Program-made: the position numbers and the translations under genes | Shown: in pieces, positions 1-15,407 of the stretch | Layout of the letters: the number at the start of each line of letters is the position of its first letter | Numbering within the stretch: position 1 is the first letter of the stretch | The notes under the pieces: model-generated | What the model was told of the DNA's origin: nothing | What the model saw: only the letters and a program-made list of their open reading frames with translations | The model's database searches: none | IMG/VR virus record: IMGVR_UViG_3300048592_000644 | Location: 1 to 54,668 of that record | Length of the DNA: 54,668 nt | Direction: 5' to 3' (one strand) | From: a virus | Taxonomy: Duplodnaviria; Caudoviricetes

Positions 1-26
1 TTATGACATTTGCGTTACGTTGTCAA
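1..26 (-). promoter_or_regulatory. sigma70-type promoter (truncated by window edge) with GTAACGCAAA box
   Basis: Minus strand TTGACA (21-26), 17-nt spacer containing GTAACGCAAA, then TAA at the window edge; same layout as promoters at 8056, 50099 and 52057. Confidence 0.6.
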
Positions 27-45
27 TATCTTTTGTCTTGAATGT

Positions 46-756
46 TCAAGGTATCAAATAAACCACTTCCCCGTTACCAGCCTCCCCCTTAACCAGTAGC
101 CCATCCCTAACTGCCCAAACTAAGTACCGTTTTTGCCAACGCTCTCTACCTGTTTTGAACATAGCCCGTTGTATGGCTTGTTTGGTGGTTGGTACTCTGG
201 CCTCTGTTAGCTCTTTTACAGTAGCCAATAGCTCAATAAACTTTTGTTTGCTCTTTAGGTTATGAGCCTGTTTTATGTTTGGCTTAGGGGCTTCTAGCGG
301 GTTCAGAGTATCAAGTTCGGTAACAGCATAAAACCATTTATCCTCCCCCGCCCATCTCCTTAAAATCCCCGCCTTTACGCCGTTGTCCATAGCTTGCCTT
401 AAAGCAGTGTCGCTAACTACGGCATCATGGTAAAAGTCGCCTATAAACTGTCTAATAATGTCAACGTCTATGTGCCTTAACCCTTCACTCTGCAAATAGC
501 CTATACAGCCCATTACCGCCCCTTCTAGCGTGTTTGGTGCATCGGCCGAGGCAAGAGGCGCACCCCACATTTTAGCGGCCTTCTTTTCAGCCTCTTGTAT
601 CGTTTTACCTTCGGCAAAAAAGGCTATCATCTCATTTATCCGGCGGGGAGCAAACACATAACCAGTCTTACTTTTCCTCACCACAAAACCATGAGGCCAT
701 TTGTAACCACATAACTCAGGTAATTCTTGCCCTGGGGCAATGTCATAAATCAGCAT
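46..756 (-). CDS. hypothetical protein, possibly winged-helix DNA-binding
   Basis: 236-aa ORF on the coding strand with AGGTGA-like SD; basic C-terminal half; no family recognised. Confidence 0.6.
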   Translation of the reverse strand: MLIYDIAPGQELPELCGYKWPHGFVVRKSKTGYVFAPRRINEMIAFFAEGKTIQEAEKKAAKMWGAPLASADAPNTLEGAVMGCIGYLQSEGLRHIDVDIIRQFIGDFYHDAVVSDTALRQAMDNGVKAGILRRWAGEDKWFYAVTELDTLNPLEAPKPNIKQAHNLKSKQKFIELLATVKELTEARVPTTKQAIQRAMFKTGRERWQKRYLVWAVRDGLLVKGEAGNGEVVYLIP

Positions 757-768
757 AGTTCACCTAAC

Positions 769-799
769 AAAAAACAGCCTCGAATATTCGAGGCTGTTT
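769..799 (-). terminator. intrinsic terminator
   Basis: Perfect palindrome aaacagcctcgaatattcgaggctgttt followed by a T-run on the minus strand, just downstream of ORF 820-1833. Confidence 0.75.
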
Positions 800-819
800 A
801 CTAGAAAGATTATTTAATT

Positions 820-1833
820 TTAGTTTAGATGTTTAGAAGCATCTTCTACCCAACGCCGGGCGGTACGTTCAGCTTGCCCGTATTTTTCCATGACTGCTTT
901 CCAGTCACTTCCCGCAATAAACAACCAATCCTCTTGGGTTAGTTCGTTTTTGCGTTTTGGTGCGGCCGGGGCCGGGCTAGAAGCCGGGGCAATGGCTTGT
1001 ACTTGGATTTGCGCCTGTTTGGTTTGCTCTTGAGCGATACGCAACTGGTAAGCCAATTGGTCACGCTCTAATTTTTGACGGGCTTCGTCGGCTTCTTTTT
1101 GTAGTTTAAGGCTATGTTCTAGCTCTTGTGCTTTTAAGGCCATCTGGTGGGTAAATTCTCGTTCCTCTTTTTCCAGTTGATAAGCACGGTCGGCCGCTTC
1201 TTTGGCCTCACTCTCTAAGCGTGTTTGTTCAGCCTTAGCTACAGCCGAATCACTTTCAATCTTGGCTATTGCGGCTAATTGTTCGGCTTCTTTTTCTGTG
1301 GCGTGTTTTTGGTCAACCATGTTGGCAAAGTTCATCATACCATTAACCGCATAAGAAAGTGGGGCCAAGATGTAAAGCATGATACCGATAATCCGTAAGG
1401 CTTGGCTCATTTCTTCCAGTAGGATTAGGGCAACGATGGCAATAACAACATACAGCACCACACCTAAGCCGGAAACAAGGGCAAAGAATTTGTAGATTTT
1501 GACATGCTCTTTTAATTCAGCATCCCACAAGGCCATTAAGAAGCGAATGGTTGATTTAGCTGAACCCATACCCAACAGGTCAAGGCCAATAGCCATAGAA
1601 GCGGCCATAAAGAAAGCCACAAAATCACCTAACGCCTCACGCGCCCCATGATAGACGGCCGCCCCCATAAAGATAACCGGGGATAGCACAATAATCATAG
1701 GGGCAATGCGCCAAGAGGTTTCAGTAAACAGCCGTTGGATAGCGTCTACCGCTCCAATGGAGCTATCTACAAATGACCATTTAGAGGAACGTTCATTTAA
1801 CTTAATCATAGCAGGGCGGACATTTGTCAACAT
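820..1833 (-). CDS. multi-pass membrane protein with coiled coil and C-terminal HTH (SpdB/DUF2637-like architecture)
   Basis: About 4 hydrophobic helices, long E/K/Q/A coiled coil, C-terminal WKAVMEKYGQAERTARRWV HTH-like motif; AGGAGATGC RBS. Confidence 0.6.
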   Translation of the reverse strand: MLTNVRPAMIKLNERSSKWSFVDSSIGAVDAIQRLFTETSWRIAPMIIVLSPVIFMGAAVYHGAREALGDFVAFFMAASMAIGLDLLGMGSAKSTIRFLMALWDAELKEHVKIYKFFALVSGLGVVLYVVIAIVALILLEEMSQALRIIGIMLYILAPLSYAVNGMMNFANMVDQKHATEKEAEQLAAIAKIESDSAVAKAEQTRLESEAKEAADRAYQLEKEEREFTHQMALKAQELEHSLKLQKEADEARQKLERDQLAYQLRIAQEQTKQAQIQVQAIAPASSPAPAAPKRKNELTQEDWLFIAGSDWKAVMEKYGQAERTARRWVEDASKHLN

Positions 1834-1888
1834 ATTAGCATCTCCTTTTACAAATCATGTGTCAAATGTCTGTCAAATGACAGACAAA

Positions 1889-2998
1889 CTAATTATGACT
1901 GACAAATTGTAATGGGTCAATGATTTGCCCATTTTTCTTTACCGATAGGTGGGTATGGCAATCTGTGGAGTTCCCATTAGAGCGTTCAACCCCTACAACT
2001 GTGCGCCCTTGTACCACCTCTTGCCCCACTTCTACGATGTAATCACCGTGCATCATTACCACTTCCAAGCCCAAAGGCTTGTTTTTTAAAGCCAAATAGC
2101 TGTTATTGGCCCCGTATGGCCCTACATAGCTATCAGTCCCTTTTCGCACGACAACCCCGGAAATAGGGGCATAAAGGGGAGTTCCGCATGGGGCAAGCCA
2201 ATCACGCCCCGGCCAATCACCCACCCCATGTAACCCATTGTCTACCAGAGTGGGGGTGACATTTGACGGGTACGGCAAAATCACCTCTCCCTCACCGGCC
2301 GGATAAATGTCTGGCACTTGTTTAGAGAGGTAGTTCACCCAAGCCGGTAAGGGGTTTTGAATTGACATATCTGGGGTACGCACTAATTCAGCCTTCGTAC
2401 AACCGTATTTATGTTGGGTATAAAACTCTCTAATCGCCTCACCATTACCACTTAAAACGCCCTTGTAAATGTCGTTTGTCCAACGGCTGTATCTTTGCGT
2501 CTCTTCTCCCCAATTCTTTGAATTTAAGGCCATAAAACCGCCGTTATAACCAGCAAAAGCATTGCCTACATCCCCCCCGGCCGCATTGAGGAAGGTGCGA
2601 TAAACCGCCGCTCCTTTGTCAATATTCACTTGCGGGTCATAAGCAAGGGGGAGTTCGTGGGACATGAAGTTTAGGGGCATCACTTGCATAAGCCCCATAG
2701 CCCCGGCCGATGACACCGCCTCTGGGTTGCCACATGATTCAACCAACATAATTGTTGCCAGGGCATTAGGGTCAACATCATAGGCCGATGCAGAACGCAC
2801 GATAAGCCGCTCCCAACGGGTGATAGTGGGGGGGAATAGGTGTGAGATTCGTTCAGTTTCAAACCCACCAGTGAGATAAACGTACCCTAACCAACCCCAA
2901 AAACAATAACGAAGGGCGGTACGGATACCCTTCCATACCGCCCCTAAATCAATCACTGTGCTAATTATGAGCGTTAAAACAGCCAGTAAGGTACTCAT
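1889..2998 (-). CDS. membrane-anchored lytic transglycosylase (SLT) + M23 peptidase
   Basis: SLT motifs IMLVES, AVSSAGAMGLMQVMP, AGYNGG, ETQRY; M23 motifs HxxxxxxxD, GTPLYAP, MHG, HTH; N-terminal TM segments. Confidence 0.9.
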   Translation of the reverse strand: MSTLLAVLTLIISTVIDLGAVWKGIRTALRYCFWGWLGYVYLTGGFETERISHLFPPTITRWERLIVRSASAYDVDPNALATIMLVESCGNPEAVSSAGAMGLMQVMPLNFMSHELPLAYDPQVNIDKGAAVYRTFLNAAGGDVGNAFAGYNGGFMALNSKNWGEETQRYSRWTNDIYKGVLSGNGEAIREFYTQHKYGCTKAELVRTPDMSIQNPLPAWVNYLSKQVPDIYPAGEGEVILPYPSNVTPTLVDNGLHGVGDWPGRDWLAPCGTPLYAPISGVVVRKGTDSYVGPYGANNSYLALKNKPLGLEVVMMHGDYIVEVGQEVVQGRTVVGVERSNGNSTDCHTHLSVKKNGQIIDPLQFVSHN

Positions 2999-3006
2999 TT
3001 TTGCCT

Positions 3007-4725
3007 CTAAAACATCTTTTCAAGGTTCTCTTTAATCTGCGAAACAGCGTTGTTACGCACGGCATTTTTGGAGTTCCAAATAGCCAAAATGGTTTTGTTT
3101 TGGCTATAGCCATTGAGCAACATAAACGATACTGCACGATGCTCCCCGGCCGTGATTCCGGGAATTGTGGCGGGGGATATGTCGCTCAAAAACTCAGTTA
3201 ATTTGGCTTTGACATAAGCCGGGATTCCCCCGCTATTAGCCTCTAAATCTTCATCTTCCCCTGGTACAATGCCTTGCACCACTGGCTGGTTATACCCCTC
3301 AAAAAGTGGTGTTTTAGTGGTGTTTTGCACTGGTGTAAACACTGGTGTTTCACCTTGCACCACCTCATAATTGGGGCGTTGCCAGTTCAGTTGGTTATTT
3401 TGCGCCCCGTTTTGCACCGGCCGGGAAACACTGGTGCGGCTGGTGTTTTGCCCGTTTGGATAAACCATAGGCATAGGTCGTTGTGTGGCCTCGTCCGGCC
3501 GGGTAGAGGGGTAATTGCCCATATATTCCCCTTCGCTTTCGTCATCGGTCGGCGGACGGTTATCCCCTTCGTTAATAGCTAATTGCTCCCAAAGAGGAGC
3601 CTGGGCAGGGGTTGGGCAGTGCTTTTTGTACAACTTCGGGTCGGGTAAGCGGGGGGTCACAAACTCTTGTTTGTTGCCTCCATACCCATCGGCAATAACC
3701 AGTTTTCGTTCCCCCGTTTTATGGTCTTTTAAGGCTTGGACAATGTAGGTGAAGTTTTGCATCAAATCAGTTTGCCCTTTCATATCCATTGTTTTCATCT
3801 GCTTGTCTTGTACCCCAAGCATTAGATGAATATTTAATTTCCGGCCCCGGCGTAGGATTTGCTCTACAACGGGTTTGACATACTGTGTATTAGCCGTTAC
3901 CGCCGCATATTCGTCAATAACCACATAAAGCGGGGGAAAATCCTCTGCCCCTTCTGCATATAACTTATTGCGGCGGTCGAATAACCGGCCGATGTTAACC
4001 GCCACTTTATCAATAAGGTCATAGTTGCTCCCCCGTCCGTAAACTTTGCACCCCGGCCACAGACCAATAGCGGCATCAGGGTCTAAGACAACCACTAAGC
4101 CTTGTTTAGCGGGGTCTGGTTCACGTTTAGCCCGTTTTACCCACATAGCGGTTAACGCATGATACAGGGTTGTTTTACCCCCCCCTGTATGCCCAATCAC
4201 AAGGTTATGCAGGGCATCAGCCAATAAAGTCATCACGGCCGGGTCTGATTGTTCACCAGCTAAGACAGGTCGGCCGGTCGGCAATGGTGCATGAGCGGCC
4301 GGGGCGGGGCTTTCGTGCCGCATAACAGGGGCAACGGGGCGGGACGGCTGACTAACCGGCCGGGGTATGTTTGGGGTAGTTGGGTTAGGCGAATTAGAGC
4401 CACCGGCCGGGGGATTGTCACCGAACACGCCCATAGTCACAATTTGACCTAAATCACCATTATTGAGGAAATGGTTAACTACCCGGTATGTGCCGTAGGT
4501 TAAAATGCCACCGCTTACGCAGGTAAAGGCAGAGATGGGTACAACTTCCTCTGGCCCAAAAACGTTTTCAATAAAACTAGCCCAGACAAAGCCTCCCCCA
4601 CAAACGGTAAATACTCCCACCCCGGCCGCTTTCACGACAAAACCGCCAGCATCATTTACGATGTCAGCCAAGCCCCGGCCGGTCGTGCGTTGGTTTACAA
4701 AGTTTCTTACTGTGGTCATGTCCAT
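3007..4725 (-). CDS. FtsK/HerA-superfamily (TraB/coupling-protein-like) membrane ATPase
   Basis: Two N-terminal TM helices, Pro-rich linker, Walker A GHTGGGKT, Walker B VVIDE, RRGRKLNIHLMLGVQ motif; start moved to 4725 behind AGGAG. Confidence 0.85.
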   Translation of the reverse strand: MDMTTVRNFVNQRTTGRGLADIVNDAGGFVVKAAGVGVFTVCGGGFVWASFIENVFGPEEVVPISAFTCVSGGILTYGTYRVVNHFLNNGDLGQIVTMGVFGDNPPAGGSNSPNPTTPNIPRPVSQPSRPVAPVMRHESPAPAAHAPLPTGRPVLAGEQSDPAVMTLLADALHNLVIGHTGGGKTTLYHALTAMWVKRAKREPDPAKQGLVVVLDPDAAIGLWPGCKVYGRGSNYDLIDKVAVNIGRLFDRRNKLYAEGAEDFPPLYVVIDEYAAVTANTQYVKPVVEQILRRGRKLNIHLMLGVQDKQMKTMDMKGQTDLMQNFTYIVQALKDHKTGERKLVIADGYGGNKQEFVTPRLPDPKLYKKHCPTPAQAPLWEQLAINEGDNRPPTDDESEGEYMGNYPSTRPDEATQRPMPMVYPNGQNTSRTSVSRPVQNGAQNNQLNWQRPNYEVVQGETPVFTPVQNTTKTPLFEGYNQPVVQGIVPGEDEDLEANSGGIPAYVKAKLTEFLSDISPATIPGITAGEHRAVSFMLLNGYSQNKTILAIWNSKNAVRNNAVSQIKENLEKMF

Positions 4726-4736
4726 AACTACTACTC

Positions 4737-4997
4737 CTAACCTTTGAGGCGAGAGGCGACAAAGGCAATAAACAACAAAGTACCCAAACAACCAACAACG
4801 CCTAAAGAGCTATCTTCACTATTGAAAATCAAGGAAACCTGTGCATAAAAACTGAACATTACCCAAAAAACGAAGGTGCATAACAAGAAAAGGGACGTTG
4901 CCACTACCCCAAGCACCCGGCCGGAGTAGTTTTTGAGGCTCTTAAAGCCATTTACCAAAATATCTTTGATGGTACGCATTGCGTCTGGTTGCATCAT
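4737..4997 (-). CDS. small two-TM membrane protein
   Basis: 3' part of ORF 4737-5159; ATG at 4997 after AGGTG, next to the upstream stop; two hydrophobic helices. Confidence 0.6.
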   Translation of the reverse strand: MMQPDAMRTIKDILVNGFKSLKNYSGRVLGVVATSLFLLCTFVFWVMFSFYAQVSLIFNSEDSSLGVVGCLGTLLFIAFVASRLKG

Positions 4998-5001
4998 ACA
5001 C

Positions 5002-5877
5002 CTACCGTACTGTGAAGATGGCCCCGGCCACGGCCGTACCAAATTGATTGAGATAACAACGGGGCAGTGAGTAGGTCGTACCAAACAACCAACCTGGGCT
5101 TGTTTCTTGGATAGTGGCTGTTTCATCACAAGCACTTGTCCACGCCTTTGCCCCGTCATTCAAAACCACATAAGTACCCCCCGCCAACATTTGCCGTGTT
5201 TGGGTTTGAATAGAACTGTCAGCCCAAAAACTATGTTGCACCCCGCCAAAGAACTGAGTGCGAGTGGTCAATACGGTTTCAGCCTGATTTAACTTATCTT
5301 GTGCCGCCAAACCTTGAACATCCAAAGGGGACATAGCCAAGATAGACTGAACTACCGCCCGGCCTTTGGTGCGGTCGCCGCTTTTTTCAGCATCGGCTAA
5401 CTGAGTGTAATAGCCGAACAATACCTGCATTTCTGCGGTAACGGTTACAGGCGGGGCATAGGAAACGGGTGGTTGGTTGACGGCCGGTACACCCCCGCTA
5501 TAGTTTGGTGGTGGAGCATACCCCCCGCCCACGGCCGGGGCTTGATACTGTTGAGGGGGAGTGTAGGGGGTGTTGGATTGGTAGTAATAATCCATTGTGG
5601 TATTCGTGGTATTGCCCCACAAACCAGTACGCAACCCCAAATTACCAACGGCGTGACTGGCTTCACCCACGATAGGCAACCAATTGTTTCCTACTTGAGT
5701 TTGGGATTTAGTGAAGGCCGTAGGCACTACCCAAACCAGCATGAATACCACAACTGCGGCCACAACACACATGCCGATAAGGTAATTCACGGCCGCTTTG
5801 GCGTTCATGGGGCGCAAATTCCACGCCACATAACCGGCAATACCAAAAATAATGAGGGTCAAAAAAAACGGGGTCAT
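5002..5877 (-). CDS. membrane protein with Pro/Tyr-rich linker and extracytoplasmic domain
   Basis: Two N-terminal TM helices, P/Y/Q-rich linker, C-terminal domain with two Cys; AGGAGATGC RBS. Confidence 0.7.
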   Translation of the reverse strand: MTPFFLTLIIFGIAGYVAWNLRPMNAKAAVNYLIGMCVVAAVVVFMLVWVVPTAFTKSQTQVGNNWLPIVGEASHAVGNLGLRTGLWGNTTNTTMDYYYQSNTPYTPPQQYQAPAVGGGYAPPPNYSGGVPAVNQPPVSYAPPVTVTAEMQVLFGYYTQLADAEKSGDRTKGRAVVQSILAMSPLDVQGLAAQDKLNQAETVLTTRTQFFGGVQHSFWADSSIQTQTRQMLAGGTYVVLNDGAKAWTSACDETATIQETSPGWLFGTTYSLPRCYLNQFGTAVAGAIFTVR

Positions 5878-5910
5878 ACAAGCATCTCCTTTGCTAGAAA
5901 TTCAGTTACA

Positions 5911-6186
5911 TTACAGAGGCCAATCATCAAACCAGATAATCAGCAAAACATCTAAAACAACTTGATACCATTTCAAAGGTATTGGTTGCCAGTTGGGTTT
6001 GTTTGATTTTGCCCGGTTACATTCCCGGCAACTACAAACAACGTTCCCCCAACTTCCCCCGCCCCTAGATACTGGTAAAACATGGTCAAACTCTAAGATG
6101 TCGGGGAACTTTCCACAGTACCTACAATGACCAAAGTCTCTAATAAGTACCCTTAACTTTGTTTTTGTAGATACATGCCTACTCAT
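5911..6186 (-). CDS. HNH endonuclease
   Basis: RDFGHCRYCG...DHVLPVSRGG...NVVCSCRECNRAK. Confidence 0.9.
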   Translation of the reverse strand: MSRHVSTKTKLRVLIRDFGHCRYCGKFPDILEFDHVLPVSRGGGSWGNVVCSCRECNRAKSNKPNWQPIPLKWYQVVLDVLLIIWFDDWPL

Positions 6187-6194
6187 AAACCCCT

Positions 6195-6257
6195 AGTTTA
6201 GCAATGTGGTACAAAATTGGTCAAATGATTGCCTAATTTTAACCACATGAATAGAAT
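6195..6257. promoter_or_regulatory. back-to-back divergent sigma70 promoters with inverted-repeat spacers
   Basis: Plus TTGCCT(6229-6234)-17-TAGAAT(6252-6257); minus TTGACC(6219-6224)-18-TAAACT(6195-6200); both spacers contain AATTTT..ACCACAT. Confidence 0.65.
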
Positions 6258-6330
6258 ATCGGCTTAGGAGATGCTTTTATGAACAATCAAACGAAATACC
6301 CCTTTAGTTTTCTAAAAGGAGATGCCACCA

Positions 6331-6885
6331 ATGCAGGAAACAAGTGATTATATTTATTCTTTCGGGAAAACACTTCCTACTATCTCCCCCAAAGAACAAG
6401 AAGTTCTTGAGCAAGTCCGAAATATTAGCTTTGAAAGGGCGTTAAGTTCCTTCACAAATAAAGGGCATGACCCTCTCTCTTACACCCTAGTAACTCACGA
6501 AAAGGTTGTATGGCGCACTGAGATATTGATTGACTTTCGGGGGTTTAGTCGGCCGGTTGATTATCTCTACAAACCAACACCGCCCCCAACCAAAGAACGC
6601 CACAGTTTCACCTATCTTAGCCTTAGCATGTTTTTGGCTAACCCCTCAATCCTGCCGCTTAATGGGCAGTTAATCATGCCACCAGAGTATCTAAATCAAT
6701 CCCCTGTGCCAGAAGAAATAGGGATGCAATATTTTAATCTTCTCTCGCATGAACGGCCTAATCGCCCTAAAGACATAGTTCTGCATAGAAAAACTTACAG
6801 GGTTGGTATGATGCACTCTTGTTCCTTTTCGTTGGGCGAAGAGGTTTATTATTTATCTTGTTTTGCTTTTCAGAGGAGCGAGTAA
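6331..6885 (+). CDS. hypothetical protein
   Basis: ORF 6322-6885; ATG at 6331 is properly spaced from AAGGAGATGC. Confidence 0.65.
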   Translation: MQETSDYIYSFGKTLPTISPKEQEVLEQVRNISFERALSSFTNKGHDPLSYTLVTHEKVVWRTEILIDFRGFSRPVDYLYKPTPPPTKERHSFTYLSLSMFLANPSILPLNGQLIMPPEYLNQSPVPEEIGMQYFNLLSHERPNRPKDIVLHRKTYRVGMMHSCSFSLGEEVYYLSCFAFQRSE

Positions 6886-7175
6886 TGGATACCAGCGATT
6901 TATTGAACTCTGGTGAAGTGGCCTTGATGTTTAATGTGTCAATTTCTCGCGCCTCCAGGCTCATAAAAAGGGGCTTTGAAAAAAGCGGGGTTGGTTTTAA
7001 GAAGGGGCGCAACTGGTTTATTTTCCGCACAGAAGTAGAAGCTATTCGGCCCCGGCCCACGGCCGGGCGGCCGCGCAAAGGAACGGTAAAAAGTGAGTTA
7101 CAACAAAGCGATGAAACACGCGAACAATCCCCGGCGGTTCAAAATGACCAAAGCACAACGGGCGGGGAATCGTAA
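6885..7175 (+). CDS. excisionase-like HTH DNA-binding protein with AT-hook-like motif
   Basis: LLNSGEVALMFNVSISRASRLIKRG...KKGRNWFIFRTEV, then GRPRK; TAATG coupling to upstream gene and GAGGAG RBS. Confidence 0.75.
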   Translation: MDTSDLLNSGEVALMFNVSISRASRLIKRGFEKSGVGFKKGRNWFIFRTEVEAIRPRPTAGRPRKGTVKSELQQSDETREQSPAVQNDQSTTGGES

Positions 7176-7419
7176 TGTAGGAATGGGGTTATCTGTTTTA
7201 GGCTCTCAGGAACGGCGGGGAAACCCTTCCTTTGGTGGGGGAATAGAGCATAAAAAGCTAATGAAACTTGTCTTACAGTATGATGACGAGACAGAGAAGT
7301 TACTGAAGGAAAACCCCAATCTGGTGATTGTGGGCAACCGGCCGGACAGACAAAAAATATTGTCTCTTTACTTCCCGGACGGGAATTACAATGACTGGAA
7401 GCCGGGGGATGACGAATAA
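7093..7419 (+). CDS. hypothetical protein
   Basis: 108-aa ORF ending just before a terminator; start uncertain. Confidence 0.5.
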   Translation: MSYNKAMKHANNPRRFKMTKAQRAGNRNVGMGLSVLGSQERRGNPSFGGGIEHKKLMKLVLQYDDETEKLLKENPNLVIVGNRPDRQKILSLYFPDGNYNDWKPGDDE

Positions 7420-7424
7420 CACAC

Positions 7425-7457
7425 AACAAAAAAGAGGCCAATGGCCTCTTTTTTGTT
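7425..7457. terminator. bidirectional intrinsic terminator
   Basis: aacaaaaaagaggcc-aat-ggcctcttttttgtt between convergent genes. Confidence 0.9.
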
Positions 7458-7483
7458 ACTCTACCTTTTTTTTTACTTACGGC

Positions 7484-7969
7484 TTAGAGAGTAAAAAACT
7501 CTTTTGAGTTTGTATCAAATTCAAATTTATTCCCTTCAAAAACGTAGACAGGGTGGCCTTCCTCTGATAACCCACCATCAAGCATTGCCAACTCTTGAGC
7601 CATAACTTCTAATGCTTCCCGCCATCCCAACTTTTGCCCGGCCGGGTGCGTGGTCAAAAATTGATACCGTGCATCTAAATAAAAAGAGGTTTTATCTTGA
7701 ACGCTAACGTTAATTACATCTTCTAATTTACCAGCTAACCAATCTTGACCAAACTTCTCACCATCAAAATCAACAATTTCTAAGCCGTTGTCAAAATGAA
7801 ATTTGGCGATGGCTTTGGCGGTTGCTTCAACCGTTCCATAAGCGGCAAATTGTTCTGAGGTGGAACTGTTGGCAAGTGCGCTATCTAACATCTCTGAGGC
7901 GAATTGGTAAGGGTTATATGTACGGGTATCAACGGCAACTACAACGGGGCTAACATTTTTATCGGTCAT
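7484..7969 (-). CDS. hypothetical protein
   Basis: 161-aa acidic ORF with AGGAGATGC RBS, downstream of a consensus promoter. Confidence 0.7.
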   Translation of the reverse strand: MTDKNVSPVVVAVDTRTYNPYQFASEMLDSALANSSTSEQFAAYGTVEATAKAIAKFHFDNGLEIVDFDGEKFGQDWLAGKLEDVINVSVQDKTSFYLDARYQFLTTHPAGQKLGWREALEVMAQELAMLDGGLSEEGHPVYVFEGNKFEFDTNSKEFFTL

Positions 7970-8055
7970 GGTGCATCTCCTATGCTGAATGTGTGTTTAA
8001 TTAAATTATAAAAGCCAGTTGGAAAATTGTTTTACTTCGTTAAGTTATAAAGCTA

Positions 8056-8084
8056 ATTATAGGCGGTTTGCGTTACTTTGTCAA
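8056..8084 (-). promoter_or_regulatory. consensus sigma70 promoter with GTAACGCAAA box
   Basis: TTGACA(8079-8084)-17-TATAAT(8056-8061), followed by TAGCTTTATAACTTAA. Confidence 0.85.
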
Positions 8085-8615
8085 TGGTGAGTTTTGTGGC
8101 ACAAAACGACTTCCCGGCCGCGCTCTTAGCGATTGCTCCCAGGGAAGTTCCCCACTAAGAGCCGTTTCCCATGTTTCTTTTCTACCCGGCCCTTCCCATA
8201 CCGACATGAAAGCACCTGTTACAAAGTTCATGTCGGTATAGCACACGGCGGGTAGATATTCATGCCAAGTCCCAACATAAAAGCCTTGAGCGTCCCTGTG
8301 TATCGTGGCACACCTTGCCCATTCTGGGGCGGTACGCCAATCGTACTGTTTCTCCCAAAATGTTGCGTCAATCTTTCCGGCCGGGGCGGGGAGATTGTTA
8401 GATGCCGGGTTGGTAAGTGGGGCGTTTTTTATCTCATGTAATGCTTTAGAGACTAAATCAGCAACCGCACTTAACTCAACCGTGCTTTTACCAATCTCAA
8501 CCGAATCCCCTCTTTCATCAAACAAACTGACAGTAGGCTCACCATCACTAAACTTTATCTGACAGCTAACCTTACATTTCTCATCACTAAAAATAATTCT
8601 TTTTTGGCTGGCCAT
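8073..8615 (-). CDS. hypothetical protein
   Basis: 180-aa ORF with AAGGA RBS; YDWRTAPEWARCA motif. Confidence 0.65.
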   Translation of the reverse strand: MASQKRIIFSDEKCKVSCQIKFSDGEPTVSLFDERGDSVEIGKSTVELSAVADLVSKALHEIKNAPLTNPASNNLPAPAGKIDATFWEKQYDWRTAPEWARCATIHRDAQGFYVGTWHEYLPAVCYTDMNFVTGAFMSVWEGPGRKETWETALSGELPWEQSLRARPGSRFVPQNSPLTK

Positions 8616-8627
8616 AACAATTTCCTT

Positions 8628-9296
8628 TTAACCCCTTCTCCTGGCTTTAATAACTGGCTTGTCCCCGGCCGGTGCGTATCGCATGAGAGTAACCAGCATA
8701 GCCATAGTTAAGGGGTCATCTATATGCCCATTAAAGGTTAAATCAACTGAACCAGAAACCGTGACGTTAACCACGCCAGTACCATTGTCCTTTTGTGCTG
8801 ATTTACGCCTTTCTATGGTGTATTGACTTCCAACATCCTGACGGGGCATTTCTAGCCCCGGTATAACTTCCTCTAATCTTTCCATTAAGTCATTCCATCT
8901 TGCCCAATCCTCTCTTGCTTTTCGCGCACTTTCGTCATGCCGGGGGACGAAAAGCGGTAAAAAACGCCGTTGAATGTCTTTCGCTATAGCCCCGGCCGGT
9001 CGTGATTCGCTGACATGGATATTAACTGGTTCACCATATGAGCCTTGAAAAATCTGGTTACGGGGATAACTTGAGTTAATAGAGATAGACCACTTACCAC
9101 CCTCAAATACCAGCATAACCCAAATTTTACGCCCCGCCTTATCCACTATATAAACCATCTTGTTTTCTGTGCCGGGGGAGTTATCCCAACCGTTTCTAGG
9201 CACAAGCTCAACCGTCATATCTAAAGCGGTTGCCAACTCATACCAAAAGTCAGGGTACTCATGGGTTAAGGGTGTTTCTTGTTTTAGCCGTGACAT
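8628..9296 (-). CDS. hypothetical protein, tandem paralog A
   Basis: Aligns by eye with 9284-9964 (YPDFW, VSESRPAGAIAKDIQRRFLP, TMAML.TL.RYAPAG). Confidence 0.75.
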   Translation of the reverse strand: MSRLKQETPLTHEYPDFWYELATALDMTVELVPRNGWDNSPGTENKMVYIVDKAGRKIWVMLVFEGGKWSISINSSYPRNQIFQGSYGEPVNIHVSESRPAGAIAKDIQRRFLPLFVPRHDESARKAREDWARWNDLMERLEEVIPGLEMPRQDVGSQYTIERRKSAQKDNGTGVVNVTVSGSVDLTFNGHIDDPLTMAMLVTLMRYAPAGDKPVIKARRRG

Positions 9297-9964
9297 GGGT
9301 GCACCTCTGCCCGGCTGTTGTTATCTTGCCCGGCCGGGGCATAACGAAAGAGGGTAGTCAACATAGCCATTGTCATAGGGTTGTCTAAATCCCCTCTAAA
9401 TTCTATGGTGATTGAGCCGTAAGCGTGAACAGCGGCCGATGCACTGTAACCTCTCTCTAAGTGGCCTGGCGGGGAATAGTGGCGGGTGAGGCGATAAGTT
9501 TTTGCCTGTTCGGTCGGCAAAGGAACGTTGGGTAAAAGTTCCTCCATTCTTTCCATCACTTCCCGCCATTGTGCAATATCTTTTTTTATTTGCACCACCC
9601 GGCCGTCATGCTCTTTCACAAACTCAGGTAGAAAACGCCGTTGAATATCTTTCGCTATGGCCCCGGCCGGTCGTGATTCGCTGACACAAATTGAGAGGGG
9701 CTTGCCACGATACCCCCCAAAGATGGGGTTTTGTGGGTAGGTGCTACTAACCTCAATTACCCATTTTCCCGTTTGAAAGATTAGATAAAGCCAAACCTTG
9801 CGCCCCTCCTTATCCACTAAATACGCACGGTCAAGCATCACTTCTGGGTTATCCGTACCTTCATATTTCTGCATCGTCTCAACCTTCATATTTAAGGCAG
9901 AGGCTATCTCATGCCAGAAATCAGGGTATTGGTGAATAGGGATGGGCTTTTCTTTAAGGGGCAT
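9284..9964 (-). CDS. hypothetical protein, tandem paralog B
   Basis: Paralog of 8628-9296. Confidence 0.75.
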   Translation of the reverse strand: MPLKEKPIPIHQYPDFWHEIASALNMKVETMQKYEGTDNPEVMLDRAYLVDKEGRKVWLYLIFQTGKWVIEVSSTYPQNPIFGGYRGKPLSICVSESRPAGAIAKDIQRRFLPEFVKEHDGRVVQIKKDIAQWREVMERMEELLPNVPLPTEQAKTYRLTRHYSPPGHLERGYSASAAVHAYGSITIEFRGDLDNPMTMAMLTTLFRYAPAGQDNNSRAEVHPCHG

Positions 9965-9969
9965 GGTGA

Positions 9970-10416
9970 TTAGAGGGGTTTAATGGGGTTGTATTCGCAA
10001 ATAAACACTGTTTGTTCGTCGTAATCAATGGTGGTGCTTATTTCTAAATCATCTACATCTAAAGACAGATTGTAAAGATATGTCTCCATATCACTACCTT
10101 TGACCAAATCAGAAACTATCTCTTTGTAGAATGGAATAACGGTGATGTAAACCTTTTCTGGGTCAATCTGTTTCATCACATGCTCAACTAGATTGCGGCG
10201 TTTGTTAACCTGTTCTATCGCCCACTTTTTACCGCCATCCGCCGCACTCAAAACATCTTCACCATTATCATCTTCATTAAAAAGCCAAAGTTCTATGGTT
10301 TCGTCCTTTTTGTCCATTGGCTTTAGTATGTGAAAAATAGCCTTTGCATCCCCATCAATCGCTAAGTCAGTCAAGGTGTTTTGTACTGTGCTTGCCAAAT
10401 CTTCGTTATCCAACAT
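9970..10416 (-). CDS. hypothetical acidic protein
   Basis: 148-aa ORF with GGAGG RBS. Confidence 0.65.
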   Translation of the reverse strand: MLDNEDLASTVQNTLTDLAIDGDAKAIFHILKPMDKKDETIELWLFNEDDNGEDVLSAADGGKKWAIEQVNKRRNLVEHVMKQIDPEKVYITVIPFYKEIVSDLVKGSDMETYLYNLSLDVDDLEISTTIDYDEQTVFICEYNPIKPL

Positions 10417-10452
10417 TTTTATTTTCCTCCTGTTTCCCTTTTTTACCGGGCA

Positions 10453-11046
10453 TTAGTTTTCTATTAACTCTAAATCTTGGAAGGTGTAAGAGAAATGGTG
10501 GGCTTCATCTGCGGGATTGTGTAAGTAGTTAATGAGCCGCCACTTACTGGTATCCCATGCCGGAAAGACTGACAGAGGAAAGACAGACTTATCCCCCTGC
10601 ACCACCGTATCTACTGCGGTTAGATACAGGTGTGTGGCGATTGGTAAAAACGCCTCATAAATTGCCGCTCCCCCCGCAATGATTATCTCCCCATCATACC
10701 GGCCGCATACTTGAGCAATATCTAAGGCATGGGTCACACTACTGGCAGAAATAAACCCCGGCTTGTAATAATCCTTTCGTTCACTCATTAAGATGGCCGT
10801 CCGGCCGGGCAACGGGTGGAAATGGGGCTGGAACTCCACCAAAATATTCCCATGATGTTGATTAACAATTTTCCCCAGATAAGGCTTAGGTAATGATTCG
10901 GCTGTTTTGCGCCCCATAATAACGGGTTTCCCCATTGTTATGGCCCGGAAACGTTTTAGGTCATTTGGTAAGTGCCAGGGCAGTTGTCCATTTTGCCCTA
11001 TGGCCCCATTCTTTGAGATGGCCGCCACAATTGATATTTTCATCAC
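10453..11046 (-). CDS. folA: dihydrofolate reductase
   Basis: AIGQNGQLPWHLPNDLKRFRAITMGKPVIMGRKT, PLPGR, IAGGAAIY; near thyA. Confidence 0.95.
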   Translation of the reverse strand: MMKISIVAAISKNGAIGQNGQLPWHLPNDLKRFRAITMGKPVIMGRKTAESLPKPYLGKIVNQHHGNILVEFQPHFHPLPGRTAILMSERKDYYKPGFISASSVTHALDIAQVCGRYDGEIIIAGGAAIYEAFLPIATHLYLTAVDTVVQGDKSVFPLSVFPAWDTSKWRLINYLHNPADEAHHFSYTFQDLELIEN

Positions 11047-11420
11047 TTCCCCTTTCGCCGTGTGCGAATCTCAAAATACCCCTGTAAATGTGGGTACTCT
11101 GACATAATCTTTCGGGCATAAAAAGCCCCATAGGAATTATTTATTTTCCACTTGTCCCCTGATGTGCGTATAGCACCACGCCGGAGGCTTTCCATATAAA
11201 ACTGTATGCTCATATGCCCAACACCCGCATTAAAGTCATCTTGTACCATGTGGACAAGGTTTTTATAAACATGAGGGTTGAGCATATGGAAAGCCTCAAA
11301 TCGTTCCTTCCGTGTTTGCGGCCGCACCTCTTTGGGTAATTGTTTCAATGGCTCAAAGTCTAGGGTGAAGCGAAGCTGTACAGTTTGGTCAATATCATCT
11401 GGGTCAATCAGGTTATTCAT
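11043..11420 (-). CDS. hypothetical phage protein
   Basis: 125-aa ORF with AGGAGATGC RBS, coupled to folA. Confidence 0.7.
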   Translation of the reverse strand: MNNLIDPDDIDQTVQLRFTLDFEPLKQLPKEVRPQTRKERFEAFHMLNPHVYKNLVHMVQDDFNAGVGHMSIQFYMESLRRGAIRTSGDKWKINNSYGAFYARKIMSEYPHLQGYFEIRTRRKGK

Positions 11421-11429
11421 AGCATCTCC

Positions 11430-12224
11430 TTAAACTGCTACAGGGGCTTTAATCGCCGGGTGGGGATTGTAGCCAGACAAAACAATATCATCATAAACAA
11501 AATCAAAAATATCATATCTGCGAGTTAACTTAACCGTTGGGAGCGGCCGTGGCTCACGGTCTAATAATTGATTAACTTGAGAGAGATGGTTTAGGTAAAT
11601 ATGAGCATCCCCCAGGGTATGAATGAACTCCCCCGGCCGGTATCCCGTCACATTGGCAACCAACAGAGTTAAGAGGGCATAACTGGCAAGATTAAACGGC
11701 ACTCCCAGAAAAGCATCTGCACTGCGTTGGTACAACTGGCAAGATAAACGATTGGTGGTGGAAACATAGAACTGAAAGAGGCAATGACAAGGGGGCAAGG
11801 CCATTTGGTCAATTTCCCCCACGTTCCATGCGGAAACAACGTGTCGGCGGGAATGTGGGTTGTCAATCAGGCCATTAACCAGTTCGGTTATTTGGTCTAC
11901 GGTTCGCCCATCGGCCCCGGCCCATGAACGCCATTGTTTGCCATATACTGGCCCCAACTCCCCCACCTCATCTGCCCACTCATTCCAAATAGATACCCCA
12001 TTCTCTTTGAGGTAAGCAATATTTGTTTCGCCTTTCAAAAACCAAAGTAGTTCGTGAACAATGGACTTAAAGTGTACTTTTTTAGTGGTGAGAAGCGGAA
12101 AAGAGGTGCTAAGGTCGAAACGCATCTGATACCCAAAGGTGCTAACTGTTCCCGTTCCTGTGCGGTCACTCTTTTGCTCCCCATTTTTGAGGATGTGCCA
12201 TAAGAGGTCGTGGTATTGCTTCAT
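11430..12224 (-). CDS. thyA: thymidylate synthase
   Basis: [47 protein letters not shown]; 264 aa. Confidence 0.98.
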
Positions 12225-12505
12225 TATTCCTCTAATTTAGACAGCACCACAAAGGTTTTGCGGGTGCTTAAATTGCCGTTCAAAACTAAGTGGTGTCTGA
12301 TGCCCCCCACCTTGTAAATCGTTTCTAAAGCATCACCCTCAAAGGAGACAAAATCACCAATGCTGTAATGGCTGTTTGGGATAGATACCTCTGTTTCAGG
12401 GCGTTCCCCCCGGCTAAAAATAAACACTACTGAGGTTTGTTTGTTTTGGGCTGGTTTCCCCGTTAATACGGGTTCATCAAATGTCATGTCCATTATCGCC
12501 TCCAT
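12224..12505 (-). CDS. hypothetical protein
   Basis: 93-aa ORF coupled to thyA (TAATG). Confidence 0.6.
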
Positions 12506-14524: not shown

Positions 14525-14548
14525 ACATCTCCTCAACAAATCATGTAA

Positions 14549-14827: not shown

Positions 14828-14869
14828 AATAGCATCTCTTAATAAGTATTATAACACACCTGTTGTAAC

Positions 14870-14913
14870 AAAAAAGAGGAAATTAGCCTTTTGACTGACT
14901 AATTTCCTCTTTT
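14870..14913 (-). terminator. intrinsic terminator ending the late operon
   Basis: aaaagaggaaattag...ctaatttcctctttt stem with T-runs. Confidence 0.8.
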
Positions 14914-14937
14914 GATAGCCGCTTAAATAAAACTCAG

Positions 14938-15405: not shown

Positions 15406-15407
15406 TG

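What the first reader, a model, noticed from the sequence alone, without database searches (positions are those of the whole stretch)
820..6186. A tailed phage carrying a TraB/Spd-like DNA-transfer operon: possible cell-to-cell spread without virions
Seen: one co-oriented unit bounded by its own promoter (6195-6224) and terminator (769-799). It encodes an HNH nuclease, two small-to-medium membrane proteins, a 2-TM FtsK-like ATPase, a membrane-anchored SLT+M23 wall hydrolase, and a 4-TM/coiled-coil/HTH protein. The same genome has a complete terminase-portal-capsid-tail set, so this ATPase is not needed for packaging. Established: Streptomyces plasmids and AICEs move dsDNA with a single FtsK-like TraB and spread through filament septa using Spd membrane proteins (SpdB2 has 4 TM helices and a coiled coil). 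Inference: the phage may pump its genome into neighbouring cells of a filament or into contacting cells, a phage/conjugative hybrid strategy. No relaxase or VirB4 is visible in the window.
Basis: partly seen in the sequence, partly recalled or inferred. Interest (0 to 1): 0.88.

Follow-up and report, generated by a model that had tools for sequence, protein, structure and literature searches.

The report
Membrane DNA-pump operon in a phage
A tailed phage, probably of filament-forming Chloroflexota, carries a conserved operon for a membrane-anchored FtsK-like motor, membrane partners and a cell-wall hydrolase, which may move DNA across the cell envelope, though this is untested.

Summary
Bases 820-6186 form one tightly packed minus-strand operon: HNH nuclease, a 2-TM protein with an outside domain, a small 2-TM protein, a membrane-anchored FtsK/HerA-superfamily ATPase, a membrane-anchored SLT+M23 wall hydrolase, and a 4-TM/coiled-coil protein. 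It ends at a strong terminator, inside a real tailed-phage genome.

It is neither chimeric nor a recent insert. A distant relative, a circular 101.6-kb contig binned with an Anaerolineae MAG, shares only 7 detectable proteins with the window. Four of them are HNH, membrane protein, ATPase and hydrolase, in the same order.

The ATPase founds a rare family:
- It occurs in Chloroflexota phages and integrative elements, and on two plasmids of filamentous cyanobacteria.
- 18 of 25 copies sit beside a protein with two or more TM segments.
- In both phages, the genome's top cluster of short direct repeats (core CACCAG) lies in the 3' part of the ATPase gene. This recalls the 8-bp clt repeats read by Streptomyces TraB.

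Membership in TraB or SpdB2/DUF2637 is not shown, and the 4-TM protein is not conserved with the module. A lysis role for the hydrolase is not excluded, and no function has been tested.

This is a new variant of a known kind (a TraB-like DNA pump carried by a mobile element).

The parts
6195..6224 (-). Promoter-like site (TTGACC, 18 nt, TAAACT, with TG) in the 135-nt divergent intergenic region upstream of the HNH gene
   Evidence: 9 of 12 consensus positions. Such sites are at chance frequency in 1-8000 (10 found, 11.1 expected), so this is position-based only.
5911..6186 (-). Small HNH endonuclease (91 aa), first gene of the operon
   Evidence: Pfam HNH 1.1e-9 and HNH_5 1e-9. 26 PHROG HNH families match. 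40% identical homologue at the same place in the related phage C7.
5002..5877 (-). Membrane protein (291 aa): two N-terminal TM segments, a Pro/Gln/Tyr-rich linker, and a C-terminal domain with a conserved Cys pair that is probably outside the cell
   Evidence: TM prediction. No Pfam, PHROG or Atlas-feature match. Homologue in C7 with conserved C250 and C274. The topology is inferred from the charged loop between the TM segments.
4737..5159 (-). Small 2-TM protein. The ORF runs to 5159, but the likely start is the ATG at about 4997, giving about 86 aa
   Evidence: No family match. No counterpart in C7. A contig of a related strain spans 3959-5244 without gaps.
3007..4791 (-). Membrane-anchored FtsK/HerA-superfamily ATPase. 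The database copy starts at the ATG at 4725 and is 572 aa. Layout: N-terminal TM region, Pro-rich linker, ATPase core (residues about 183-400), disordered linker, small helical C-terminal domain
   Evidence: Invariant residues include K206, E294 and R314/G316/R317/K318. Model core pLDDT is 80-97.
3290..3460 (-). Array of six short direct repeats [AG]CACCA[GC] (spacings 9, 89, 12, 13, 11 nt) inside the ATPase gene, in the part that encodes the disordered linker. Candidate cis site
   Evidence: The copies fall in two reading phases. The related phage has 5 x GATCACCAG at the equivalent place. A related strain carries one more 12-nt unit.
1889..2998 (-). Membrane-anchored bifunctional wall hydrolase (369 aa): N-terminal TM segment, SLT lytic transglycosylase, M23 peptidase. 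It starts 8 nt after the ATPase stop codon
   Evidence: Pfam SLT 5.9e-19, M23 4.4e-10. The ES motif (E87, S88) and H257, D266, H348, H350 are conserved with the C7 homologue, which is 43-45% identical.
820..1833 (-). Four-TM protein with a charged coiled-coil-like region and a short C-terminal motif (ERTARRW) that aligns with HTH regions of relatives. Last gene of the operon, and not conserved with the rest
   Evidence: 24 relatives among 1.84 billion representatives. Absent from C7 and the other loci. The Atlas gave only a weak lead to an SpdB_N cluster, score 0.79.
772..799 (-). Intrinsic terminator hairpin (12-14 bp stem) followed by a T run, 21 nt after the last stop codon
   Evidence: I16: 14-nt arms, 100% complementary.

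Best explanation
The operon encodes an envelope-spanning DNA-translocation device that belongs to the phage.

Proposed parts:
- A motor: the FtsK/HerA-type ATPase, probably a ring, held at the inner face of the membrane by its N-terminal TM region.
- Membrane partners: the 2-TM proteins, and in this phage the 4-TM protein with a DNA-binding tail.
- A membrane-anchored SLT+M23 enzyme that opens the wall locally.
- A small HNH nuclease that could supply a DNA end or a nick.

The motor would load on the phage's double-stranded DNA, possibly at the CACCAG repeat array inside its own gene, which its C-terminal helical domain may read. It would then pump the DNA across the membrane and wall, or across a septum, into an adjoining cell of the filament. 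This is what Streptomyces TraB and the Spd proteins do for plasmids.

Shown: the gene content, the domain classes, conservation of the four-gene core, the family's spread over other mobile elements, its membrane-protein neighbours, and the repeat arrays.

Inferred: that the substrate is DNA, the direction of transport, that the proteins form one machine, and any spread without virions.
For: 1. Fold and sequence place the ATPase with translocases: EccC 3.1e-9, TrwB 2.8e-4, FtsK 1.1e-3; FtsK motor domain 4.7e-7, EccCb1, HerA. The catalytic residues are invariant in 17 of 17 aligned sequences.
2. Of the only 7 window ORFs with a BLASTP match in the circular 101.6-kb relative C7, four are HNH, membrane protein, ATPase and hydrolase, in the same order. 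Their identities (26-43%) are comparable to TerL's (46%).
3. The phage has its own TerL and TerS, so this ATPase is not the packaging motor.
4. The family also sits in elements that have no virion genes beside the ATPase in the stretch fetched. Examples are the 5.6-kb Nostoc plasmid pCC7120zeta and a Pseudanabaena plasmid (104 and 113.6 bits to the family profile). Others are chromosomal loci with a large serine recombinase, a RepB'-like primase or a DUF3987-like protein next to it. That layout parallels TraB on small plasmids and actinomycete integrative elements.
5. 18 of 25 family genes have an immediate neighbour with two or more TM segments, against 93 of 466 control ORFs in the same loci (binomial p 2.8e-8; the loci are not all independent).
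6. C-terminal domains vary across the family. Pox_D5 and RFX-type winged-helix matches occur in 2 of 17 members each.
7. Repeat arrays lie in the ATPase gene. The window has 6 copies in 170 nt, in two reading phases. C7 has 5 copies, and that is the only 170-nt stretch of its genome with 5 copies of a 7-mer. The window's array lies in one of that genome's 3 top k=6 regions, scored on a different co-located repeat because the filter dropped ACACCA.
8. [quoted passage not shown]
9. All named relatives are from Anaerolineae or Chloroflexaceae. The two family-level plasmid hits among 72,556 plasmids are from filamentous cyanobacteria.
Against: - No experiment supports it, and no RNA run holds the sequence.
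- The window's ATPase is below every Pfam cut-off, and I never compared it with a real TraB sequence.
- EccC, a protein-secretion ATPase, is the best sequence match in PDB.
- The C-terminal domain model is weak (pLDDT 61.5) and has no structural match (best E 4.1), so DNA binding by this protein is not shown.
- The repeat arrays lie in a low-complexity coding linker and could be a by-product of slippage.
- By an exact-8-mer criterion, arrays occur in or near the ATPase gene in only 6 of 25 loci. Such arrays are fairly common overall: 44 in 475,075 bases.
- The hydrolase is linked to the ATPase only in the window and C7. In the other 11 Chloroflexota genomes with a family member, no SLT domain lies near it, and no hydrolase was seen among the 10 neighbours tested.
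- None of the seven other wall-hydrolase families searched is in the window, so the hydrolase may simply be the endolysin.
- Host assignment rests on binning of relatives. The window carries no host label.
- The window is only about 52% of a genome.
Confidence: 0.4

Rival explanations
1. Lysis or egress cassette. The SLT+M23 enzyme is the phage's signal-anchored endolysin, and the small 2-TM proteins are holin-like. The ATPase is an accessory of unknown role, for example controlling or energising release of the enzyme.
For: - Amidase_2, Amidase_3, Phage_lysozyme, GH25, NLPC_P60, CHAP and VanY domains are all absent from the window. The module enzyme carries its only SLT and M23 domains.
- PHROG matches of the enzyme include endolysin families.
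- In C7 the module follows the tail genes directly, the usual place of a lysis cassette.
- The enzyme has an N-terminal TM segment and a small 2-TM ORF lies nearby.
Against: - It does not explain a conserved membrane-anchored translocase whose gene sits 8-10 nt from the hydrolase gene in both phages.
- C7 has a separate 210-aa M23 peptidase behind a small TM protein just upstream, a possible lysis pair of its own.
- The ATPase family occurs on a 5.6-kb plasmid and in integrative elements, and in three other phage contigs it lies between replication and sigma-factor genes with no hydrolase seen among the neighbours tested.
- The window holds only about half of the genome, so a lysis cassette may lie elsewhere.
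Confidence: 0.2
2. Vertical DNA handling at the septum. Like FtsK, SpoIIIE or SftA, the motor clears or pumps the element's own DNA across a closing septum, so that a plasmid-like prophage is inherited by both daughter cells of a filament. The hydrolase and membrane partners tie it to the division site.
For: - The fold is closest to the FtsK motor.
- The relatives carry partition genes: ParA-type ATPase families (AAA_31, CbiA) among the C7 ORFs scanned (which ORF is read by eye) and ParB in L006.
- The family occurs on plasmids.
- Phage FtsK/SpoIIIE-like genes of Bacillus phages have been discussed in relation to sporulation septa (PMC3359378, passage read).
Against: - A 5.6-kb multicopy-size plasmid hardly needs a segregation pump.
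- Host FtsK would normally serve this purpose.
- It does not explain the HNH nuclease or a wall hydrolase with two lytic domains.
- No septum-targeting domain was found.
Confidence: 0.15
3. The system handles something other than the element's own DNA. It could be a single-domain relative of the type VII secretion ATPases that exports proteins, or an exclusion or defence device carried by mobile elements that expels or cuts incoming DNA (ATPase plus HNH).
For: - EccC is the top PDB sequence match (3.1e-9), and one plasmid hit lies in a T7SS locus.
- PADLOC gives a local match of the ATPase to mad8 (3.3e-8 over 75 residues) and of the HNH to PtuB (2.9e-7).
- C7 carries other defence genes: CBASS families and AbiU2.
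Against: - There is a single ATPase domain instead of the three of EccC/EssC.
- The PADLOC matches cover only generic motifs, and 8 of the 10 proteins scanned had no defence match.
- The module is conserved with core phage genes, not placed like an accessory cargo gene.
Confidence: 0.1
4. Genome-entry motor. The operon is expressed from the first DNA to enter the cell and pulls the rest of the roughly 100-kb genome in. This is a motor-driven version of two-step DNA entry.
For: - A membrane-anchored double-strand-DNA motor fold.
- The operon has its own promoter region and terminator, apart from the long structural operon.
- Two-step or protein-assisted entry is known for T5 and phi29. This is recalled, not checked here.
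Against: - The family also sits in plasmids and integrative elements that never inject DNA.
- The genome ends and packaging mode are unknown.
- A wall hydrolase acting from inside is not needed for entry.
Confidence: 0.05

Closest known systems
Streptomyces TraB with Spd proteins (pSVH1, pIJ101 and actinomycete integrative conjugative elements)
   Same: - A single FtsK-like, membrane-associated ATPase carried by a mobile element, with polytopic membrane proteins encoded beside it.
- No relaxase or VirB4 family matched the ORFs scanned.
- Hosts are multicellular filaments.
- Arrays of short direct repeats lie in the ATPase gene, and TraB reads direct 8-bp repeats with its C-terminal HTH (PMC4447253, PMC4170104 and PMC5365140, passages read).
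- Family members lie next to integrases and replication genes, as in integrative elements.
- That paper already suggests SpdB2 homologues on actinophages might spread phage DNA.
   Different: - No sequence membership: below the Pfam FtsK_SpoIIIE cut-off, and no DUF2637.
- The phylum is different.
- The carrier is a roughly 100-kb tailed phage.
- A dedicated SLT+M23 hydrolase and an HNH nuclease are built into the operon. The passages of the pSVH1 paper that I read describe peptidoglycan-binding proteins, not a hydrolase.
- Domain order of the 4-TM protein differs. In SpdB2 the coiled coil is N-terminal (residues 1-99); here it follows the TM segments.
FtsK-type coupling proteins and wall hydrolases of Gram-positive type IV secretion systems (TcpA/TcpG of pCW3; PrgK and CwlT are recalled, not checked)
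   Same: - An N-terminally anchored FtsK/VirD4-like ATPase next to a membrane-anchored hydrolase with two lytic domains.
- TrwB matches the family profile at 2.8e-4.
- TrwB_AAD_bind matches 6 of 17 family members.
- The Pseudanabaena family member is annotated as a type IV coupling protein.
   Different: No VirB4, VirB6/VirB8-like or relaxase family matched any of the seven ORFs scanned (the six module ORFs and 46-756). Those systems move single-stranded DNA led by a relaxase.
FtsK/SpoIIIE-like genes already noted in tailed phages (Cluster J mycobacteriophages; Bacillus phages Wbeta, Gamma, BtCS33)
   Same: - A tailed phage with its own terminase also carries an FtsK-like ATPase of unknown role.
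- A variable C-terminal DNA-binding part is discussed for Cluster J (PMC3706429, passage read).
- A sigma-factor gene accompanies it in the Bacillus phages (PMC3359378), as in loci L008 and L009.
   Different: - The Cluster J proteins lack the membrane domain and are about 60% identical to host FtsK.
- The protein here is membrane-anchored and far from any host FtsK.
- It is coupled to a wall hydrolase and membrane proteins.
- tblastn against 50,697 phage records found no relative.
TdtA of Thermus thermophilus ICETh1 (transjugation)
   Same: A HerA/FtsK-superfamily ATPase on a mobile element is proposed to push double-stranded DNA out of the donor, working together with a nuclease (PMC5365140, passages read).
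   Different: The paper says TdtA has no detectable DNA-binding domain. The recipient takes up the DNA by natural competence. There is no wall hydrolase in that account. I made no sequence comparison.
EccC/EssC ATPases of type VII secretion
   Same: The best PDB sequence match (4nh0, 3.1e-9), with an N-terminal membrane anchor followed by FtsK-like domains.
   Different: Those proteins have three tandem ATPase domains and export WXG100-type proteins. This one has one domain, and in some relatives a DNA-binding-type C-terminus.

Membership tests
FtsK/HerA superfamily of P-loop translocases | Walker A and B motifs, conserved arginines after strand 4, RecA-like core of the FtsK type | tested here: met
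   Invariant G200-K206, E294 and R314/G316/R317/K318 in 17 of 17 sequences. Profile matches to EccC, TrwB and FtsK. Foldseek to the FtsK motor at 4.7e-7, with 184 PDB matches at E<=0.001.
Pfam FtsK_SpoIIIE (PF01580) | Score over the curated cut-off of 24 bits | tested here: not met
   The window protein scores 14.1 bits, E 0.032. 7 of 17 family members match at E<=0.01, best 2.8e-6.
Streptomyces TraB | N-terminal membrane association with a cytoplasmic FtsK-like motor | tested here: met
   Hydrophobic N-terminal region before the ATPase core. The motor core is modelled with confidence.
Streptomyces TraB | C-terminal winged-helix/HTH domain that recognises direct 8-bp repeats (clt) | tested here: inconclusive
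   There is a four-helix C-terminal domain, but the model is weak (pLDDT 61.5) and has no PDB match. Repeat arrays of 7-9 nt lie in the gene in both phages. Binding was not tested.
Streptomyces TraB | Sequence kinship with TraB proteins | not tested
   No TraB sequence was available from a tool. The actinomycete plasmid hits were weak (E 2e-4 to 1e-2), and the two inspected lie in a T7SS locus and a conjugation-like locus.
Streptomyces TraB | A hexameric pore that alone transfers double-stranded DNA between cells | not testable with these tools
   This needs biochemistry and genetics.
SpdB2 / DUF2637 | Match to Pfam DUF2637 (PF10935) | tested here: not met
   No hit for the 337-aa protein at E<=0.1. 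0 of 24 family members at E<=0.05. No hit in six frames of the window at E<=1. PF27080 SpdB_N could not be tested. It appears only as a weak Atlas lead: score 0.79, on 29% of one cluster.
SpdB2 / DUF2637 | Four TM helices plus a coiled coil, next to the translocase gene | tested here: inconclusive
   Four TM segments and a charged helical region are present, but in a different order from SpdB2. The protein is not found beside the ATPase in any other locus.
Type IV secretion conjugation system | VirB4-type ATPase and a relaxase | tested here: not met
   None among the Pfam matches of the seven ORFs from 46 to 6186. The rest of the window was scanned only in part, with PHROGs.
Type VII secretion EccC/EssC | Three tandem FtsK-like ATPase domains | tested here: not met
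   One ATPase core (residues about 183-400) in a 572-594-aa protein.
Phage lysis cassette | A wall hydrolase with an export signal or anchor, plus a small membrane protein, as the phage's only lysin | tested here: inconclusive
   The anchored SLT+M23 enzyme and a small 2-TM ORF are present. Seven other lysin families are absent from the window. But the window is about 52% of a genome, and C7 has another M23 peptidase.
Terminase / packaging ATPase | It is the genome's packaging motor | tested here: not met
   A separate TerL (phrog_675, 2.3e-91) and TerS lie at 46133-48495. The ATPase's match to phrog_2666 covers only 47 residues.

The most novel reading that the evidence does not exclude
A temperate tailed phage of filament-forming Chloroflexota has two routes of spread. 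One is by virions. The other pumps its double-stranded genome directly into neighbouring cells of the filament, using a TraB-like motor that loads on a repeat array inside its own gene, with a built-in wall hydrolase and nuclease. The same motor family would mark a so far unrecognised class of TraB-style self-transmissible elements in Chloroflexota and filamentous cyanobacteria, including the small plasmid pCC7120zeta of the model organism Nostoc PCC 7120.
Probability: 0.27. Interest if true: 0.9.

Novelty: new variant of a known kind. Interest (0 to 1): 0.66.

Why it matters
Single-protein, double-strand DNA transfer of the TraB type is known only from mycelial actinomycetes. FtsK-like genes in phages have stayed unexplained for two decades.

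This locus links the two. A membrane-anchored FtsK-like motor family is shared by tailed phages, integrative elements and small plasmids of two other phyla whose members grow as filaments. In the phage lineage it is joined to a wall hydrolase and a nuclease, and a candidate recognition array lies in the gene.

If it moves DNA between cells, virus spread without particles would have to be counted in filamentous bacteria, which dominate activated sludge and microbial mats. TraB-like conjugation would also be far more widespread than thought.

One family member sits on a plasmid of the genetically tractable Nostoc PCC 7120, so the question can be tested directly.

If instead it is part of lysis, it would be an unusual ATP-dependent lysis accessory, which is still of some interest.

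Tried and rejected
**Integrated island with att sites: rejected.** The 19-nt direct repeat at 9-27 and 8067-8085 has a third copy at 52068-52086. At 8084-8045 it reads TTGACA-N17-TATAAT on the minus strand, so it is a promoter motif. GC content is even across the junction.

**Chimeric assembly: not supported.**
- The four-gene core lies next to tail genes in an independently assembled circular relative.
- Contigs of a related strain (about 88-95% identical) cover 1069-16000 at even depth.
- No listed contig bridges 5875-6535, so this is weak support only.

**Direct relatives in public phage records.** None by megablast of 1-20000, nor by tblastn of the ATPase or the 337-aa protein.

**More loci.**
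- The single-protein scans of viral contigs found nothing.
- The metagenome scan matched 587 pattern stretches, but none was confirmed.

**The 4-TM protein as a conserved partner: rejected.** Its family profile finds only itself among the ORFs of the window and loci L002-L009, and it has no BLASTP match in C7.

**Defence system.** Only generic motif matches appeared: mad8 and PtuB.

**Fold of the C-terminal domain.** No PDB match with E<=0.001.

**Atlas search of the 291-aa protein.** No usable hit.

**Complex prediction.** The hydrolase ectodomain with the ectodomain of the 291-aa protein gave no verdict (score 0.00, controls not run).

**Expression.** No RNA holder was listed.

**tRNA genes.** None.

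**Enrichment of exact 8-mer arrays near the ATPase across all 25 loci.** 6 of 25 loci against 44 such regions in 475,075 bases. This is not clearly above background by that crude count.

**Strand skew of the array motif.** 12 to 4 in the window but 10 to 8 in C7, so there is no consistent skew.

**Literature.** Searches found no paper describing this family, pCC7120zeta's ATPase, or a Chloroflexota phage with such a module. Supplements were not opened.

Full report
**What is there**

The window is an IMG/VR virus record, linear, estimated at 52% complete. Nearly all long ORFs are on the minus strand. It is a real tailed phage:
- TerS at 47812-48495.
- TerL at 46133-47791 (phrog_675, 2.3e-91).
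- Portal-like and head-morphogenesis proteins.
- A major tail protein.
- A 1540-aa tape measure protein at 21646-26268.
- Thymidylate synthase and dihydrofolate reductase genes after the tail genes.

I did not find a major capsid match among the ORFs scanned.

Bases 820-6186 hold six co-oriented ORFs separated by 8-55 nt or overlapping:
- An HNH nuclease.
- A 291-aa protein with two TM segments.
- A small 2-TM protein.
- A 594-aa ATPase.
- A 369-aa enzyme with SLT and M23 domains behind one TM segment.
- A 337-aa protein with four TM segments.

The operon ends at a clean hairpin with a T run (799-772). It starts in a 135-nt divergent intergenic region that holds a promoter-like site. Such sites are at chance frequency in this region.

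**The ATPase**

Pfam alone gives only sub-threshold hints. The protein has 16 relatives besides itself in the 5.8-billion-protein collection.
- Their alignment keeps Walker A (GHTGGGKT), Walker B and an RRGRK motif invariant.
- The family profile matches EccC (3.1e-9), TrwB (2.8e-4) and FtsK (1.1e-3) in the PDB.
- Scanned singly, 13 of 17 members match DUF87/HerA, 12 match AAA_10, 7 match FtsK_SpoIIIE and 6 match TrwB_AAD_bind.
- The AlphaFold model is confident only for the core, residues 183-400. Its best structural matches are the FtsK motor domain (4.7e-7), EccC ATPase domains and HerA.

So it is a membrane-anchored member of the FtsK/HerA translocase superfamily, about equally far from the named families. 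It is not the packaging enzyme, because a terminase is present.

**Is the module part of the phage?**

Yes. The contig behind locus L002 (G001:C7, 101,576 bases) has identical 127-base ends, the signature of a circular assembly. It carries a TerL 46-47% identical to the window's.

Only seven window ORFs have a BLASTP match (1e-5) in that genome:
- TerL.
- The tape measure protein.
- One tail-region protein.
- HNH (40%).
- The 291-aa membrane protein (26%).
- The ATPase (31%).
- The hydrolase (43%).

The last four lie in the same order, directly after the tail genes. Among that contig's scanned ORFs are families for an integrase, a ParA-type ATPase, a P22-type antirepressor and CBASS.

GC content is even across the module. 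The apparent flanking repeat is a promoter motif with three copies in the window. A related strain in an activated-sludge metagenome covers 1069-16000 at even depth.

**Where else the ATPase family occurs**

- All named relatives are from Chloroflexota: one Anaerolineae MAG and three Chloroflexaceae MAGs, out of 600 pattern matches of which 4 were confirmed.
- Four IMG/VR contigs carry it (4 of 27 pattern matches). In L007, L008 and L009 it lies between replication genes and a sigma factor, terminase and portal.
- 12 of 401 sampled Chloroflexota genomes have a member at E<=1e-15.
- Beside these members I found a large serine recombinase (L038, L046), a RepB'-like primase domain (L048) and a DUF3987-like protein (L042 group). 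Three other neighbours gave no PDB match, nor did a fourth.
- Among 72,556 plasmids, 15 records match the ATPase, and only two do so below 1e-5. These are a Pseudanabaena plasmid and the 5.6-kb plasmid pCC7120zeta of Nostoc PCC 7120. Both proteins score over 100 bits against the family profile.
- Two of the weaker plasmid hits were inspected. One lies in a T7SS locus and one in a conjugation-like locus of an actinomycete plasmid.

From general knowledge, Anaerolineae, Chloroflexaceae, Nostoc and Pseudanabaena all grow as multicellular filaments. The pattern is suggestive, but the sample is small.

**Neighbours**

18 of 25 family genes have an immediate neighbour with two or more predicted TM segments. 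In the same loci, 93 of 466 control ORFs do (p 2.8e-8; some loci are related to each other). A motor with polytopic membrane partners is therefore the conserved unit.

The wall hydrolase is not. An SLT domain lies next to the ATPase only in the window and C7. Ten further neighbours showed no hydrolase.

The 337-aa protein is not conserved with the module either. Its family has 24 members among 1.84 billion representatives. The shared layout is four TM segments, a charged helical region and a C-terminal HTH or zinc finger. Neither C7 nor the other loci searched have it. No member matches DUF2637. The only link to SpdB is a weak Atlas lead.

**Repeat arrays**

In the window's ATPase gene, the part that encodes the disordered linker (3290-3460) holds six copies of [AG]CACCA[GC], with spacings of 9, 89, 12, 13 and 11 nt. 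The copies fall in two reading phases, giving N-T-S, R-T-S, T-P-V, T-P-V, N-T-T and T-P-L. This argues for a constraint on the DNA rather than on a peptide.

C7 holds five copies of GATCACCAG at the equivalent place.

In a genome-wide scan, the C7 array is the only 170-nt stretch with five copies of a 7-mer. The window region is among that genome's three best k=6 regions, even though my filter dropped the two-letter core. The related strain has a 12-nt insertion that adds one more unit. Other family loci have arrays of other 8-mers in or beside the gene (L005, L006, L011, L046, L049). By the exact-8-mer count this is not clearly above background.

TraB recognises direct 8-bp repeats of the clt locus through its C-terminal HTH (PMC4447253, PMC4170104 and PMC5365140; passages read). 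My recollection that the pSVH1 repeats lie at the 3' end of traB was not checked.

The C-terminal domain of the window protein is a four-helix bundle of modest confidence with no structural match. In the family, Pox_D5 and RFX-type winged-helix families each match 2 of 17 members.

**The main rival: lysis**

- The window has no Amidase_2, Amidase_3, Phage_lysozyme, GH25, NLPC_P60, CHAP or VanY domain. Its only SLT and M23 domains are in the module enzyme.
- Both catalytic sites look intact.
- In C7 the module sits where lysis cassettes usually sit.
- Against this, C7 has a separate M23 peptidase behind a small TM protein just upstream.
- The window is only half a genome.
- The lysis reading leaves the conserved motor unexplained.

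**Comparison with what is known**

- FtsK-like genes in tailed phages are on record. Examples are Cluster J mycobacteriophages, where the membrane domain is missing, and Bacillus Wbeta-like phages. Their function is unknown.
- The suggestion that Spd homologues on actinophages might spread phage DNA is in print.
- New here: a distinct, membrane-anchored family outside the actinomycetes; its presence across phages, integrative elements and small plasmids; the hard-wired hydrolase and HNH in one phage lineage; and the arrays in the gene.
- I found no paper on this in eight searches.

**Verdict**

The anatomy is confirmed, and the module is a genuine, conserved phage feature. The best reading (0.40) is a TraB-like DNA-translocation device. 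The next readings are a lysis role (0.20), septal segregation (0.15), secretion or defence (0.10) and genome entry (0.05). Nothing functional is shown. Novelty: a new variant of a known kind. Interest: 0.66.

Noticed in passing
window 8045-8085, 9-27 and 52068-52086: A 19-nt motif occurs three times on one strand, against 0.05 expected. On the minus strand the copy at 8084-8045 reads TTGACA, 17 nt, TATAAT. It is probably a phage promoter with a conserved spacer that may serve as an operator.
   Followed up: partly
window 7423-7459: A perfect 16-17-bp hairpin flanked by A and T runs lies between the converging genes 7093-7419 (+) and 7484-7969 (-). It looks like a two-way terminator.
   Followed up: no
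window 6322-7419 (+): A small plus-strand operon of three ORFs is transcribed away from the module. By eye, the middle ORF (6819-7175) resembles excisionase-type HTH proteins. This is recalled, with no family search. It could regulate the module. None of the three ORFs had a PADLOC hit.
   Followed up: partly
window 2912-2945 (-): A strong hairpin (14 pairs, 8 of them G-C) followed by a T-rich stretch lies about 50 nt inside the hydrolase gene, just after the ATPase stop codon. It may be an attenuator between the two genes, or chance.
   Followed up: no
window 10453-12224 (-): Dihydrofolate reductase (phrog_316, 1.2e-41) and thymidylate synthase (phrog_160, 2.5e-118) genes lie between the tail genes and the module.
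   Followed up: no
window 12477-14539 (-): Two adjacent ORFs (179 and 508 aa) have many weak matches to HTH DNA-binding and HNH or invertase-type families, spread over several stretches. They may be repeated DNA-binding modules.
   Followed up: no
G001:C7 (loci L015-L020), 30-95 kb: The circular 101.6-kb relative carries many non-structural gene families: type II CBASS-like genes (SMODS, SAVED, AGS_C, E2, ThiF), AbiU2, Mrr, a DnaA N-terminal domain, a DNA polymerase III beta clamp, MgsA, a response regulator and histidine-kinase ATPase, a polyprenyl synthetase, an integrase and a ParA-type ATPase. It may be a phage-plasmid.
   Followed up: partly
L003 2318-4174: In a Chloroflexaceae MAG contig, a canonical FtsK/SpoIIIE-like protein (phrog_1358, 5.4e-51) lies about 1 kb downstream of the family ATPase. 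It is followed by multi-TM proteins and a 999-aa Calx-beta protein.
   Followed up: partly
L005 4395-4700: Directly after the ATPase stop codon there is a dense 300-nt field of direct and inverted copies of CCGTTCAA/TTGAACG. It looks like an iteron or transfer-origin-type site.
   Followed up: no
window 25636-25810 and 32499-32895: Clusters of four copies of an 8-mer (TTGCTGTT in the tape measure gene; GCATCTTG in a tail-region gene). These are probably coding repeats.
   Followed up: no
window 11686-12224: In all three activated-sludge runs, many short contigs of other organisms match the thymidylate synthase gene in pieces, which produced spurious joints in the read layout. This is a conserved-gene artefact, not a rearrangement.
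   Followed up: no
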